A DNA stretch of 64,000 nt, taken from NCBI RefSeq assembly GCF_055900595.2, contig NZ_CM148325.1, one strand, 5' to 3'. Of the stretch, positions 46,401-52,400 are shown piece by piece (position 1 is the stretch's first letter; the number at the start of each line of letters is the position of its first letter). The position numbers are program-made.

Positions 46401-49400
46401 ACAGTTTGTTGGGACAGGTTTTCGCCATGCTGGAAACGCGTCGGGCATCCGTCATGTATTTTTCAGATCACGGTCTGGAGTATGACCCGACAAAAGAACA
46501 TGCCTATTTTCATGGTGGAATAAAACCCAGTCAGCAGGCTTATCATGTTCCGATGTTTATCTGGTACAGCCCGACACTGGGAGAGCATGTCGATCGCCAG
46601 ACGGTGAACAGCGTTTTTTCCACTGCGTATAATGATTATCTGATTAATGCATGGATGGGCGTAACCAGACCGGCTCAACCGAAAACGCCGGAGGAGGTGA
46701 TTACCCGCTGGCAGGGGAAATCCGTGGTTTTTGATGCCAGTCATAACGTGTTTGACTACAAAGTATTACGAAAGAACTTTAATGAACTCCAGGAATAATT
46801 CGTTAAAGTAATTTACGACTCTATTCTTTTTTAAAGGAAACTTTCAGAAAATGCCCCCAGGGCGATAACCTGGGGAAGGGGGACTGTGTTATTACTGGTG
46901 GATAAATTATTACTTGTTTGAAAGATACACTAATGCAATATCTACTGATGCTGGATGCTTGAGTGTTTCATTCCTGCTGCTGAAAACGGCAATATCCAGG
47001 GCCAGACATATTCACCGTTAATATTTCTGCATTTCTGTACAATTTCCTCAGAAAGTGTCTCATCAATTCTTTCCCGCAACAGCTTCTGCTGTCTTAAAAT
47101 GCTTTCGCATATTTCGAAATCATCTTCCTGCATCAGCATTTCGGCGCATTTAATGATTTCTGCTCGTTCATGCAGCACAGAGGAATGGTTATAGAGCCAG
47201 TTTACAAACAGCAATGCTTCCGGATATTGTCCCCATAATGGTGAGTATGTTGCATAGTAATCTTCTGCCGTATCCAGAGAGCCGGAGAAGTTATGCCGCA
47301 CAGCAAGTGGAAATGGATGCAAATTTCCGCACAGCATTTCCGCGATGTAAGTGTTTGTAGCAAAGCCATGACGAAAAGCTGTGGCAGCCTTAACATGTTC
47401 CCCATTCAGAAAATGCAGAAGACCAAGTTCATACCAGTAAGGTGAAAATTCATCAGCATGCTCTTTCAGTACACTGAAGGCTTGCTTATGATCGCCTGTT
47501 CGTAACAGTTCTGAGCCCAACAACCAGCGGGCACCCTGATTATCTTCAGGATTGTATGCCAGTATTTTATCAGTAAGCATAACCGCATCCTGATGACGCT
47601 GTAAGTGCACATTTGCGAGAATTGCTGCATAAAGTGCGCGCAGATAAGGCCGGTTTTCGGGATGCATCCAGATGATTTCACCACTGAAACTTTCCGGGAT
47701 GAGACGATTACCTGCCGCCAGTCCTTTAAGAGCGGCGTTCAGTGCCTTACGCGGGGCATTCTGCTCCAGAAATGCATATGCCAGATGAGCGTGTATATCA
47801 ATAAAGTCAGGCTCCCGTTGAGCAAGGCGTCTGAGTTTGTTGATATAACTCGTTTCGCTGATTTCATCTGTGTCGTATGCATCAAGCAGTTCTTCAAACT
47901 CACCCAGTAATGGGCCGAACCAGGTTTCCGGAAATACAAAATAACCCAGGTTATCGTGCACTTCAAAGCGTAATCTGTCGTTCATTTTCTGAGCCTGTAA
48001 AACGGATGGGACACAATCTGAAAAGCATAAAAGTTGTGATGTTGTGTATCAAGTCTTGTTTTTGTCCGGGATGAATGTTGTTTACAATATCATCGGCAGT
48101 GGTTTTTCATGAGAATGAAAATTTATCTTTATCTGCATTCCGGTGTATTGTGAATTGTCGGCTGAAACAGCATATTAATCGATTTTTTTAGGGGAATGGT
48201 GCTGAAATAACGACATGATGATGATTTATATTACAGGTATCAAAATTGTTAGCGGTCCATAACGGTGTGATGTTTTGAGATTGTTTACAGATGCAATATT
48301 AAATATTTTGACAAAAAACAAAAAACAAAAAACAAAAAACAAAAAACAAAAAATATCTAAAAATAAAGCATGAAAACAAAATTCCTCCGGACCTGGAGGC
48401 CGGAGGAGAACTTGTGGATTGAGAGAAAATATCAGAACAAGTGTTCTTAACCCTGACTCTCTTGCCTGGAAAGCGAATCAATGTAATCTGCGTACCATTG
48501 CATCATTTCACGGCGACCATCGAGATACTGGGCATGATTATAGGTACCCCTGATGGCGTTTTTATCCACATGAGCTAACTGCATTTCAATCCAGGCAGAA
48601 TTAAAGCCCTGTTCGTGCAGAATGGTACTCATGGTGTGACGAAAACCATGACCGGTTGCCCTGCCATCGTAACCGATACGTTTGAGCACCATATTGATGC
48701 TGGCTTCGCTCATTGGCTTGTTGATATCACAACGTCCCGGGAAAACCAGCCGGTATTGTCCGGAGAAAGTTTTGAGCTGCAGCAGAATGTCAGTGGCCTG
48801 TCGTGACAGTGGTACGACATGTTTACGTCGCATTTTCATGCGGCTTTCAGGGATTGTCCACAGGGCATTATCAAAATCAATTTCTGACCATTCAGCGGAC
48901 CGTAGTTCAATCGTTCTGAGGCCTGTCAGAAGCAGCAGATTTGTCGCCATGCGGGTAACAGGACTGCCATGATACTCAGCGAGCTTCCGGAGAAAAACAG
49001 GGAGCTCATCTGCTCTCAGGTGGGGGAAATGTGCAGCTTTTGGCGCCGCCAGCGTACTGGTCAGTTCAGATGCCGGATTGACAGTGGCTCGTCCGGTGGC
49101 GATGGCATAACGAAAAATCTGATTACAGTATTGACGCACCTTACGAAGTTTTTCCAGCGAGCCACGTTTTTCTATGCGGCGCAGAATTTCCAGCATTTCC
49201 AGCGGGAGGATATCCGTAACGCTTCGTTTGCCCAGATACGGGAAAATATCTTTATCCAGCGCTTCCAGTACGCTTCTGGCGTAACTTTCAGACCATGACA
49301 AAGATTTATGCTGGTGCCATTCCGTAGCGAGGGCATGGAACGTATTGGTGGCAGAGATTTTCTGAGTGAGTTTTTCCTTTCGCTTCTTTTCGCCCGGGTC

Positions 49401-52400
49401 ACCACCTTCGGAGATGATTTTTCGGGCATCGTCGCGTTTGATTCTGGCCTCAGCAAGGGAGACGTCGGGATAGACGCCGAGGGCCAGTTTTTTCTCTTTT
49501 CCTGCTATCCGGTATTTAAGCCGCCAGTAGCGGGCACCCGTGGTTTTTACCAGCAGATATAAACCACGTTCGTCAGAGAGTTTATAGTCTTTTTCTTTAG
49601 GTCTGGCTGTTTCGACCTGTCTGGCTGTAAGTGCCATATGGGGGCTCCTGAAACTGACTGAACACAATGAGCCCCCACCGGGGCCCCCAATGAACGCTTG
49701 ATTGAGAGAGAGTTCAGTAGAGTCTGGTGGAGTTCAGAATGTTCAGATTGCTTGTAACGATGTGATTATACTTGAGTTTCGTGGAGTTCGGGAGATGAAT
49801 CTGGAAGTGAAAGTGGTGCCCGGACTCGGAATCGAACCAAGGACACGGGGATTTTCAATCCCCTGCTCTACCGACTGAGCTATCCGGGCAACGGGGCGCA
49901 TTAAACCTGATTCGCCTCGTCTCGTCAATCAAATTTCTTCAATTTAGTGCAGACTGCACAATCTATCATCACTTTGCCGCTATTGCACGCATTGTCAGGC
50001 AAACCAGGCGGTCCAGGCGGCGGAAAGCGGCATTGCCAGAAGGAGTGCTGGAAGCATGTTGACCACCGGGAACATTTTAATGCCACAGATGCGTAATCCG
50101 GTTGCCAGCAGCAATAAACCGCCTACGGCGCTGAAGTCTGCCATCATCGACGGTGTGGTCAGCGGTAATATCAGCGCGGCAGCCCACGCCAGTGTTAACT
50201 GGATGATCAGTAATGGAATGCTAATCACCGACACCGCAATACCCAGCGAGCAGGCGAAGATCATCGCCGTAAAGAAATCAAGAAATGACTTGGCGATTAA
50301 AATACTCGGATCGCCGGTCATCCCTTCGTTCATCGCCCCGAAGATTCCGGTGCCGCTGGCGCAAAACAGGACAATAATCGCGACAAAATTCTGAATAAAA
50401 GATTCATGCGCTGGCTTCTTACGCGAGTGGTGAAACAGATTATGCGCTTTGGCGACCACTGTATTGACGCCTTTTTCCAGCAGACAAATTTCGCCGATTA
50501 ATGCTCCGAGTAAGGTTGCTAAAACCATCGCCGGAAGGTTGGCGCATTTCACCACCAGTAAAATACCAATCCCCAGCGATGCCAGACCAAAAATTGATGT
50601 CATGGAGACGCGGATACGTTCCGGTAAGCGTTGGCTAAGAAGTGCGCCGAAAACGCCACCCAGTAAGACTGCACTTGCGTTGATAAAAGGGCCGATGACC
50701 ACAAGAGTTCCTGTTAGCTGTATTGTTTGATTTTCTTATTATGAACTTTTGGCGCCGTCGATGGCTTGTTTGTTCGCAAAGTCCTGGCTTGCACGCTTTA
50801 GCGAAAGGTGCCATGATTGCGCGAATTTTCTCCTCTCTGTACGGAGTTTGCCCGATGCACGCCACCTCCTTACATTCTCTCGCTTATCGCCGTTTCGCGC
50901 GAAACTCTTCTCTTTTTATGCTACTGCTCATGCGGTGAAGTTAACGCACGCTCACTGCAGGACAACAGTAAAATCAGAGCGTTTCTGCTTTTACTGATGT
51001 CTGGCGGTCGGAGCTGGTGACCAGTTTGACCCATATCTCATGGGGCAGGGTTTTCCTCCTTGTCCGGTATTCTTACTTCCCCTAAACGGGTTTTGCGCTT
51101 ATGAAATCAATGAATATTGCCGCCAGTAGTGAACTGGTATCCCGACTTTCTACTCATCGCCGCGTGGTGGCGTTGGGAGATACTGATTTTACGGACGTCG
51201 CGGCAGTCGTCATTACCGCTGCGGATAGTCGCAGTGGCATTCTTGCATTGCTTAAGCGCACCGGTTTTCATCTACCGGTGTTTTTGTATTCCGAACATGC
51301 TGTTGAATTACCTGCGGGCGTTACGGCGGTAATCAACGGCAACGAGCAGCAGTGGCTGGAGCTGGAATCCGCAGCCTGTCAGTATGAAGAGAATTTGCTG
51401 CCACCGTTTTATGACACGCTGACGCAGTACGTTGAGATGGGTAATAGCACCTTTGCTTGCCCTGGACATCAACATGGTGCGTTCTTTAAAAAGCATCCTG
51501 CCGGACGCCATTTTTACGATTTCTTTGGCGAGAACATCTTTCGCGCCGATATGTGTAACGCTGACGTAAAATTGGGCGATCTGCTTATTCATGAAGGATC
51601 GGCGAAAGATGCGCAGAAATTTGCAGCCAAAGTCTTTCATGCCGATAAAACCTATTTTGTGCTGAACGGCACATCGGCAGCGAATAAAGTGGTGACGAAT
51701 GCGCTGTTAACGCGTGGCGATCTGGTGCTCTTCGACCGTAACAACCATAAGTCGAATCATCATGGCGCGTTGATTCAGGCGGGGGCGACACCGGTCTATC
51801 TGGAAGCTTCACGTAACCCGTTTGGTTTCATTGGCGGTATTGATGCGCACTGTTTTAATGAAGAGTATCTGCGCCAGCAAATTCGCGACGTTGCGCCAGA
51901 AAAAGCCGACCTGCCGCGCCCGTTTCGCCTGGCGATTATTCAGCTGGGAACCTATGACGGCACTGTCTATAACGCCCGTCAGGTGATCGATACCGTTGGG
52001 CATCTGTGTGATTACATTCTGTTTGATTCCGCGTGGGTCGGTTACGAACAGTTTATCCCGATGATGGCGGATAGCTCGCCGCTGCTGTTAGAACTTAACG
52101 AAAACGATCCGGGGATCTTTGTGACTCAGTCGGTGCACAAACAGCAGGCGGGATTCTCACAGACGTCGCAGATCCATAAAAAAGATAACCATATCCGTGG
52201 ACAGGCGCGTTTTTGCCCGCATAAGCGGTTGAATAATGCCTTTATGCTCCATGCTTCTACCAGCCCGTTCTATCCGCTGTTCGCCGCCCTGGACGTTAAC
52301 GCCAAAATTCATGAAGGGGAGAGTGGGCGTCGGCTGTGGGCTGAGTGCGTTGAGTTGGGTATTGAGTCGCGCAAGGCTATTCTTGCGCGCTGTAAGCTGT

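What the first reader, a model, noticed from the sequence alone, without database searches (positions are those of the whole stretch)
48447..49889. Island boundary: P4-type integrase next to pheV tRNA, with conserved core to the right
The tRNA-Phe gene and the adjacent integrase define the right end of the island. Everything from 49995 onward follows the conserved core order yqgA, speC, nupG, mltC, and so on. The left boundary and the distal att repeat must lie beyond the window start.
Basis: established knowledge. Interest (0 to 1): 0.3.

Follow-up and report, generated by a model that had tools for sequence, protein, structure and literature searches.

The report
Genomic island end at pheV tRNA

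Summary
A tRNA-Phe(GAA) gene identical to K-12 pheV lies at 49814-49889 (-). An intact 396-aa tyrosine integrase gene follows it at 48447-49637 (-). Window 49812-64000 is colinear with K-12 (yqgA, yqgH, speC, nupG, mltC, yggX, mutY and onward, about 97% identity). Homology to K-12 stops 2 nt past the tRNA 3' end, and nothing from the K-12 yghD side lies left of it.

No second copy of the tRNA 3' end exists in the window. In relatives that are near-identical where they overlap the window's left end, island DNA continues about 58.7 kb beyond the window start. It ends in ParDE, two arm repeats, a 19-bp repeat (ATTCCGAGTCCGGGCACCA), then the exact K-12 pheV downstream flank and gspM/yghD.

One refinement applies. 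The integrase belongs to the P4 family (42% identical to P4 Int, with a P4-like layout of TGGGGGC arm repeats). It is not the common GI-pheV 'intP4' (43% identical). It is the SMS-3-5 type (99% identical), found in about 10% of complete E. coli genomes at pheV, pheU or both.

Verdict: already known and of low interest.

The parts
49814..49889 (-). pheV, tRNA-Phe(GAA), intact
   Evidence: ARAGORN. It is 76/76 identical to K-12 pheV. The yqgA-side flank identifies it as pheV rather than pheU.
49814..49832 (-). att core: the last 19 nt of the tRNA gene (ATTCCGAGTCCGGGCACCA), which is repeated at the distal island end in relatives
   Evidence: An exact 19-bp second copy lies at the distal end in MS8345, JSMCR1, ten further loci and GCA_900448525.1. 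There is no second copy inside the window.
49638..49813 (-). 176-bp integrase-proximal att arm and int regulatory region. K-12 homology ends at 49812.
   Evidence: Break of synteny. The stretch has 0-5 mismatches in 14 relatives that carry the same integrase at pheV or pheU. A TATAAT at 49770-49765 (-) was read directly from the sequence. No full promoter consensus was found.
49671..49689 (-). two tandem arm-type repeats, TGGGGGCCCCGGTGGGGGC
   Evidence: This is the only such tandem pair in the 64 kb; 0 are expected in shuffles. Position and sequence parallel the annotated attP arm repeats of phage P4 (TTGGGGGCATAATTGGGGGCAT).
49639..49647 (+). inverted copy of the arm-type repeat (TGGGGGCTC), covering the RBS and ending 1 nt upstream of the int ATG
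   Evidence: Inverted repeats I2 and I3. P4 has an inverted arm repeat at its int start, annotated at 3915-3926.
48447..49637 (-). integrase gene (396 aa), P4/IntS-family tyrosine recombinase of the SMS-3-5 type
   Evidence: Pfam domains. 42% identity over the full length to P4 Int, E 9e-108, with R241, H330, R333, H356 and Y366 aligned to identical residues. 99% identical to the SMS-3-5 integrase. The exact protein is on record in 7,121 blocks of the assembly collection.
48384..48399 (-). terminator-like hairpin downstream of int
   Evidence: Consensus scan. This is a pattern match only.
1..49813 (.). right-hand 49.8 kb of the island (mosaic cargo; the left end is outside the window)
   Evidence: No K-12 homology. 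GC content of 36-57% in 2-kb windows. Cargo read from relatives' annotation and Pfam: asrA, TPS/CDI-like locus, GIY-YIG and OLD nucleases, IS remnants, hsdRMS, scr sucrose regulon, H-NS paralogue, OMP, WYL regulator, Ept-family transferase, TPR protein.
49890..64000 (.). conserved core: pheV 5' flank, yqgA (49995-50702 -), yqgH, speC (51101-53236 +), nupG (53285-54541 -), mltC (54743-55822 -), yggX, mutY, trmB, yggL, yggN, ansB, yggM, hemW, rdgB
   Evidence: Colinear BLAST blocks against MG1655, annotation of MG1655 and MS8345 and Pfam.

Best explanation
Window 48447-49889 is the tRNA-proximal junction of a large genomic island (GI-pheV) that entered the chromosome by site-specific recombination.

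Inferred mechanism: a circular form of the element carried an attP. The attP consisted of a 19-bp core identical to the 3' end of tRNA-Phe, flanked by arm-type binding repeats of the TGGGGGC type. The element's own P4-family tyrosine integrase recombined this attP with the 3' end of pheV (attB).

Consequences of integration: the tRNA gene is regenerated intact. The integrase gene and its proximal arm sites lie immediately 3' of the tRNA. The displaced chromosomal copy of the 19 bp, together with the native pheV terminator, moves to the far end of the island, outside this window.

Shown here: the anatomy, the break of synteny, the homology to P4 Int and to the P4 attP layout, and the matching distal junction in relatives.

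Inferred, not shown: that the integrase is still active, that it binds the TGGGGGC repeats, that it represses its own gene through the repeat at its RBS, and that excision needs an AlpA/Vis-type factor encoded in the distal module.
For: The tRNA is identical to K-12 pheV, and K-12 homology ends 2 nt past its 3' end.

The integrase is intact and has the P4-type domain architecture. It is 42% identical to P4 Int over the full length, with catalytic R, H-x-x-R, H and Y conserved.

The arm-type repeats are arranged as in annotated P4 attP: two tandem copies about 125-145 nt from the core, plus an inverted copy at the int start.

In elements with the same integrase, the distal end reads ParDE, then CACATGGGGGCCTCATTGGTGGCC(C/T)C, then about 52 nt, then the 19-bp repeat. 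The native flank follows: the K-12 pheV terminator and gspM/yghD, or the pheU flank and cadC, or another integrase in tandem.

The int-plus-arm segment is 100% identical over 1,367 nt at pheU in strain FEX669. The same exact integrase occurs at both pheV and pheU within single genomes. This argues for integrase-mediated targeting of the shared tRNA sequence rather than flank-based recombination.

The literature describes GI-pheV in 52% of complete E. coli genomes, 9.7-110 kb long, with 19- or 23-bp repeats and a P4-type integrase next to pheV (PMC11537424).
Against: The distal repeat and left boundary of this particular island cannot be seen in the window.

The roughly 108.5-kb size is extrapolated from a relative (GCA_900448525.1). 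Its colinearity with the window was checked only over window 1-2826; other assemblies cover 1-11797.

No excisionase homologue is present in the window. No sigma-70 consensus promoter was found for int.

The island is heavily IS-ridden, so it may no longer excise as a unit.

The NCBIfam integrase-domain model PRK09692 scores 311 bits, below its 434-bit cut-off.
Confidence: 0.9

Rival explanations
1. The junction is a fossil. The island was acquired by integration long ago but is now fixed. The integrase is retained without function or has been domesticated, and the same element appears at pheU and pheV through transfer of large chromosomal segments and homologous recombination rather than through integrase activity.
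For: The island is a mosaic full of IS3, IS66 and IS21 remnants. About a third of the reference GI-pheV lack a distal repeat and appear stabilised (PMC11537424). No excisionase gene is in the window.
Against: The integrase ORF is intact with all catalytic residues. The exact protein is on record in 7,121 blocks of the assembly collection. Both att arms and a perfect 19/19 repeat are conserved in relatives. Junctions at pheU and pheV are precise to the tRNA 3' end although the flanks are unrelated. Flank-based homologous recombination would not produce that.
Confidence: 0.25
2. The integrase belongs to an intact prophage or to a conjugative element (ICE) rather than to a non-self-transmissible genomic island.
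For: The closest phage integrases (Sf6, HK620, HK633 and others) are 46-47% identical. In one relative (L080) an ICE-like element with ParA and DnaB lies directly upstream of this integrase. The distal module in relatives (AlpA, DUF3987, YagK/YfjJ, inovirus Gp2-like) looks like the remains of a P4/CP4-type satellite.
Against: No capsid, tail, terminase, lysis, relaxase or type IV secretion genes appear in the 49.8 kb of the window. None appear in the roughly 58.7 kb beyond it in relatives, judged from annotation and Pfam listings. The cargo is metabolic, defence and adhesin genes.
Confidence: 0.05

Closest known systems
GI-pheV of E. coli SMS-3-5 (PMC11537424, Table 1)
   Same: The integrase is 99% identical (391/394 aa). 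The 176-bp tRNA-proximal att region is identical. The chromosomal site is the same (yqgA-pheV). The reported attR contains the same 19-bp core ATTCCGAGTCCGGGCACCA.
   Different: The cargo differs. SMS-3-5 follows the integrase with a substrate-binding protein, an alpha-galactosidase and an MFS transporter. The window has a TPR protein, an Ept-family transferase, the scr regulon, hsdRMS and more. The reported SMS-3-5 island is 91.9 kb, against about 108.5 kb extrapolated here.
Canonical GI-pheV / pheV pathogenicity islands with intP4 alleles 4.1-4.5 (CFT073, EC958, 536, APEC O1 and others; PMC11537424)
   Same: Same attB (3' end of tRNA-Phe). The integrase sits immediately 3' of the tRNA. The cargo is mosaic and modular, the islands are 10-110 kb, and the direct repeats are 19-23 bp.
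   Different: The integrase lineage differs. The window integrase is only 43% identical to the 420-aa integrase that heads the second, pap/tia-bearing island in MS8345, which I take as representative of that class. That integrase is itself 55% identical to P4 Int. The arm repeats also differ: TGTGGGTATAATTGCGGGTATA there against TGGGGGC-type here. The two types occur in tandem at one tRNA.
Satellite phage P4 integrase and attP (target leuX)
   Same: Same domain architecture and 42% identity over the full length, with conserved catalytic residues. Same att layout: a core equal to a tRNA 3' end, two tandem arm repeats on each side, and an inverted repeat at the int start. The arm motif is similar: TGGGGGC.
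   Different: The tRNA target differs (Phe, not Leu). The integrase lacks a 12-residue insertion present in P4 Int. No P4 replication or helper-exploitation genes are in the window.
IntS-type integrases of Sf6, HK620 and HK633
   Same: These are the best phage matches, at 46-47% identity over 97-99% of the length.
   Different: Those are integrases of complete temperate phages. To my knowledge (from memory, not tested here) they target argW.

Membership tests
tRNA-integrated genomic island (GI-pheV) boundary | Intact tRNA-Phe gene in the pheV chromosomal context (yqgA upstream) | tested here: met
   the tRNA is 76/76 identical to K-12 pheV, and the 105-nt 5' flank differs at 2 positions.
tRNA-integrated genomic island (GI-pheV) boundary | Integrase gene immediately 3' of the tRNA, in the same orientation | tested here: met
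   int is at 48447-49637 (-), 176 nt from the tRNA 3' end.
tRNA-integrated genomic island (GI-pheV) boundary | Synteny with an island-free reference breaks at the tRNA 3' end | tested here: met
   K-12 homology ends at 49812, and the native terminator after pheV is absent here.
tRNA-integrated genomic island (GI-pheV) boundary | Direct repeat of the tRNA 3' end at the distal end, next to the native flank | not testable with these tools
   The repeat is absent from the window and the source genome beyond the window is not available. The feature is met in relatives: MS8345, JSMCR1, ten loci and GCA_900448525.1, 58.66 kb left of the window start.
P4-family (Arm-DNA-bind_3 / DUF4102) tyrosine integrases | Arm-binding N-terminal domain, central domain and catalytic domain | tested here: met
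   PF13356, PF22022 and PF00589 all score above the gathering cut-offs.
P4-family (Arm-DNA-bind_3 / DUF4102) tyrosine integrases | Full-length homology to P4 Int with the catalytic R, H-x-x-R, H and Y residues | tested here: met
   42% identity, E 9e-108. R241, H330, R333, H356 and Y366 align to identical P4 residues. The catalytic Lys is probably K268 or K272; this was not resolved.
P4-family (Arm-DNA-bind_3 / DUF4102) tyrosine integrases | att site with a tRNA-3'-end core flanked by repeated arm-type sites | tested here: met
   for the proximal arm and for the distal arm in relatives. Binding was not tested.
P4-family (Arm-DNA-bind_3 / DUF4102) tyrosine integrases | NCBIfam PRK09692 integrase-domain model above its cut-off | tested here: not met
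   311 bits against a cut-off of 434. This shows the protein lies outside that narrower curated model, not outside the family.
P4-family (Arm-DNA-bind_3 / DUF4102) tyrosine integrases | Catalyses attP x attB recombination | not testable with these tools
   This needs an experiment.
Canonical GI-pheV intP4 alleles 4.1-4.5 (PMC11537424) | At least about 94% nucleotide identity to the common intP4 | tested here: not met
   The window integrase is 43% identical in amino acids to the 420-aa integrase class. It is 99% identical to the SMS-3-5 integrase, which the paper reports as the outlier with 46.3% nucleotide conservation.

The most novel reading that the evidence does not exclude
The SMS-3-5-type integrase, with its own TGGGGGC-type arm sites and the ParDE-terminated distal arm, may be a separate recombination module that is still active and orthogonal to the common intP4. 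It uses the same 19-bp tRNA-Phe core. That would explain how islands stack in tandem at one tRNA and occupy pheU and pheV in the same cell. The published GI-pheV survey treated this type as a single outlier, yet it is present in about 10% of complete E. coli genomes (526 of 5,426).
Probability: 0.35. Interest if true: 0.3.

Novelty: already known. Interest (0 to 1): 0.1.

Why it matters
The finding is mainly useful as annotation. It fixes the right border of a large mosaic island to the base, between 49813 and 49814. It identifies the integrase type and predicts the sequence and approximate position of the missing left border.

The only point of wider interest is bookkeeping for E. coli island biology. 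Two distinct integrase lineages share the tRNA-Phe attachment core, each with its own arm repeats. The less common one, seen here, is about ten times more frequent than its single mention in the recent GI-pheV survey would suggest.

Tried and rejected
(1) I searched the window for a second copy of the tRNA 3' end. I used 25-mer and 16-mer patterns with mismatches, nested 14-30-mers, and a 23-mer with up to 5 errors including indels, to catch the published 'GG-CACCA' attR variant. Only the tRNA itself matched.

(2) A 13-nt partial match (GGGTCCGGCACCA, 21720-21732, minus strand) sits about 30 nt outside the end of an IS3-family element and has no further similarity upstream. I rejected it as a chance match.

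(3) I searched the window by tblastn for an excisionase, using two AlpA proteins from relatives and P4 Vis. Nothing scored better than E = 1.

(4) The consensus promoter scan found no sigma-70 promoter for int.

(5) The first look-up for walking left failed because the mechanical 351-aa asrA ORF is not the called product. The 347-aa version worked.

(6) Look-ups with ParE, the integrase and HsdS did not return the targeted near-identical assembly. Colinearity of that assembly with window 2827-49813 therefore stays unverified.

(7) No complete genome in the E. coli collection holds the whole island: 0 records cover at least 80% of window 1-24000. The source genome could not be read beyond the window.
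Full report
**What is at the coordinates**

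ARAGORN finds a single tRNA gene in the 64-kb window: tRNA-Phe(GAA) at 49814-49889 on the minus strand. It is identical at all 76 positions to K-12 pheV.

Directly 3' of it, on the same strand, is an ORF listed mechanically as 48447-49667. The real start is the ATG at 49637, preceded by AGGAG. That gives 396 aa, the same length and product as RefSeq WP_001218741.1, annotated as 'tyrosine-type recombinase/integrase' in related genomes. Pfam finds the three domains typical of P4-like integrases: Arm-DNA-bind_3, Phage_int_M and Phage_integrase. The finding's coordinates therefore span the integrase gene, a 176-bp spacer and the tRNA.

**The core to the right**

BLAST of the window against MG1655 3,095,000-3,125,000 gives two colinear blocks, 49812-61763 and 61742-64000, at 97.7% and 96.7% identity, in reverse orientation. 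By Pfam and by the annotation of MG1655 and of strain MS8345, the genes are yqgA, yqgH, speC, nupG, mltC, yggX, mutY, trmB, yggL, yggN, ansB, yggM, hemW and rdgB.

K-12 homology stops at 49812, two bases beyond the CCA end of the tRNA. The K-12 sequence that follows pheV, a GC-rich hairpin with a T-run and then yghD, is replaced here by island DNA. Nothing from the K-12 yghD, yghJ or glc side occurs anywhere in window 1-49811. The right border of the island is thus fixed to the base.

**The integrase and its att arm**

The protein is 42% identical to phage P4 Int over its full length (E 9e-108). R241, H330, R333, H356 and Y366 align to identical P4 residues. The best phage matches are the Sf6, HK620 and HK633 IntS-type integrases at 46-47%.

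The 176-bp spacer carries two tandem repeats, TGGGGGCCCCGGTGGGGGC, at 49671-49689 on the minus strand. This is the only such pair in the window, and none is expected by chance. An inverted copy (TGGGGGCTC, 49639-49647) covers the ribosome-binding site and ends 1 nt upstream of the start codon.

This mirrors the annotated attP of P4. There, two tandem 12-bp arm repeats (TTGGGGGCATAATTGGGGGCAT) lie upstream of int and an inverted one lies at its start, about 115-135 nt from the 20-bp core. That the integrase binds these repeats and regulates itself through the one at its start is an inference from this resemblance. My recollection is that P4 Int represses its own gene; I did not check this here.

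**It is not the common GI-pheV integrase**

A 2024 survey (PMC11537424) found GI-pheV in 52% of complete E. coli genomes. The islands were 9.7-110 kb long, a P4-type integrase 'intP4' was the only conserved gene, 19- or 23-bp repeats were present in 66% of a reference set, and five closely related intP4 alleles were defined. SMS-3-5 was an outlier at 46.3% nucleotide conservation.

The window's integrase is only 43% identical to the 420-aa integrase class, which is itself 55% identical to P4 Int. It is 99% identical (391/394) to the SMS-3-5 integrase, and the 176-bp att-proximal region is identical.

Megablast with the integrase plus arm finds it, at 80% coverage or more, in 526 of 5,426 complete E. 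coli genomes. Of these, 332 have it joined to yqgA, that is, at pheV. Others have it at pheU, next to dicD and dsbD. Examples are JSMCR1 and FEX669; FEX669 is 100% identical over 1,367 nt. Two genomes carry the exact protein at both sites.

**The missing left end**

No second copy of the tRNA 3' end is in the window, even allowing 5 errors and indels in 23 nt. A 13-nt partial match at 21720-21732 beside an IS3 end is chance.

I then looked at elements with the same integrase. In MS8345 (pheV), a perfect 19-bp repeat ATTCCGAGTCCGGGCACCA lies 51.5 kb from the tRNA. It is followed by a second, 420-aa integrase and a pap/tia island, giving a tandem array. In JSMCR1 (pheU), the same repeat lies 61.3 kb away, followed by the pheU flank and cadC.

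In ten further loci the distal end has the same structure: ParDE, then CACATGGGGGCCTCATTGGTGGCC(C/T)C, about 52 nt, then the 19-bp repeat. What follows is the exact K-12 pheV downstream flank plus gspM/yghD, or the pheU flank, or another integrase; one locus (L051) has a different flank.

The distal arm repeats resemble the proximal ones and sit where P4's second pair of arm repeats sits. The two ends together therefore reconstruct a P4-style attP.

**Walking left from the window**

Exact-protein look-ups found assemblies that overlap the window's left end. One is 100% identical over window 1-11797 (L014). Others are 99.97% identical (L007, L009, L011). The window starts inside an IS3-family element that interrupts asrB.

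In GCA_974498385.1 and GCA_900448525.1 the DNA beyond the window start holds, in order:
- the rest of asrB and asrC, a 1,291-aa S6 autotransporter protease, and AbgT;
- ROK, GDPD, an ABC transporter and sodC;
- IS copies, a PTS / GH88 / PL8-lyase / autotransporter block, and a cupin / SDR / lyase / RpiB block;
- then the distal module: AlpA, YagK/YfjJ, DUF3987, GTPase, DUF932, antirestriction, RadC, CbeA/CbtA, DUF4942 and ParDE.

In GCA_900448525.1 the 19-bp repeat lies at record 1,235,158-1,235,176, which is 58.66 kb left of the position matching window base 1. It is followed base for base by the K-12 pheV downstream flank and gspM/yghD. If that assembly is colinear with the rest of the window, the island is about 108.5 kb. 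Colinearity was verified for that assembly only over window 1-2826, so the size is an extrapolation.

**Mechanism and rivals**

The best explanation is classical integrase-mediated insertion of a circular element into the 3' end of a tRNA gene. The tRNA is regenerated and the chromosomal copy of the core is displaced to the far end.

Two observations fit repeated integration into the regenerated tRNA. Tandem arrays occur in both orders. The junctions at two unrelated flanks are precise.

The main rival is that this particular copy is now a fixed fossil. IS erosion and the absence of an excisionase gene in the window argue for it. The intact ORF, the intact arms and the perfect repeats in relatives argue against it. 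A prophage or ICE reading is not supported, because no structural phage or conjugation genes appear in the window or in the extension seen in relatives.

**Verdict**

The feature is a textbook, already described island boundary. The one correction of substance is that the integrase is the divergent SMS-3-5 type rather than the canonical intP4. Interest is low.

Noticed in passing
window 48311-48353: A perfect heptanucleotide array (ACAAAAA on the plus strand, 6 units) lies just downstream of the int terminator-like hairpin and about 325 nt upstream of the TPR gene start (47985, minus strand). Copy number is 2, 3 or 4 in 13 relatives with the same integrase, so this is a variable repeat and the window has the longest array seen. 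The effect on TPR gene expression is unknown.
   Followed up: partly
window 1-1809: An island-borne anaerobic sulfite reductase operon is present. asrA is intact (754-1797, minus strand). asrB is interrupted near position 460 by an IS3-family element that runs off the window start. The rest of asrB and asrC lie beyond it in relatives.
   Followed up: partly
window 3986-11474: A two-partner-secretion / CDI-like locus. It has a ShlB/FhaC-type transporter (3986-5725), a HlyC-like acyltransferase (5735-6172) and a 1,341-aa haemagglutinin-repeat protein with a PT-VENN domain (6124-10149); the homologue in strain H22 is about 2,390 aa. Orphan VENN/DUF596 modules follow. An internal 462-bp repeat (8944-9405 and 10523-10984) is 91% identical.
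   Followed up: no
window 11709-21658: A run of defence-like and fragmentary genes: a GIY-YIG nuclease, a NERD/3'-5' exonuclease-helicase, an orphan ImpA_N-VasL fusion (15270-16643), an OLD-family AAA/TOPRIM nuclease (16785-18491), and an IbrA-like PAPS-reductase/DUF3440 gene (19508-20542). An IS3-family transposase gene follows at 20840-21658, where relatives have an intact 410-aa protein.
   Followed up: no
window 24877-38314: A type I restriction-modification system hsdRMS (24877-30774) is followed by a complete sucrose PTS regulon, scrK-scrY-scrA-scrB-scrR (31836-38314). The stretch is 99.5% identical to a pheU island in strain JSMCR1.
   Followed up: no
window 38966-39340: An H-NS paralogue has only the N-terminal oligomerisation domain (124 aa). 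Several relatives encode a 157-aa version with the C-terminal DNA-binding domain, while others share the short form.
   Followed up: no
window 45125-46798: An island-borne phosphoethanolamine transferase lies two genes from the integrase. It matches the EptA, CptA and MCR-family models only far below their cut-offs (best 162 bits against 500), so its substrate is unassigned.
   Followed up: no
L080 (GCA_027274645.1) 9720-11191: In this genome the same integrase is preceded by a partial copy of tRNA-Phe, about 46 nt starting in the anticodon stem, instead of the full gene. Upstream of that lie ParA, DnaB and other ICE/plasmid-like genes. This is a tandem array with the window-type island in the distal position.
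   Followed up: partly
L031 23760-24116 and L042, L045, L046: At pheU the DNA after the distal repeat carries a short integrase fragment before cadC. From memory, this matches the P4-like integrase remnant annotated in K-12 (yjdQ). It would mean that an older 420-aa-type island was once there and was mostly deleted.
   Followed up: no
window 61742-61763: There is a small indel relative to K-12 in the yggM-hemW intergenic region. The two BLAST blocks overlap by 22 nt in the window, and roughly 50 nt present in K-12 have no counterpart in the window.
   Followed up: no
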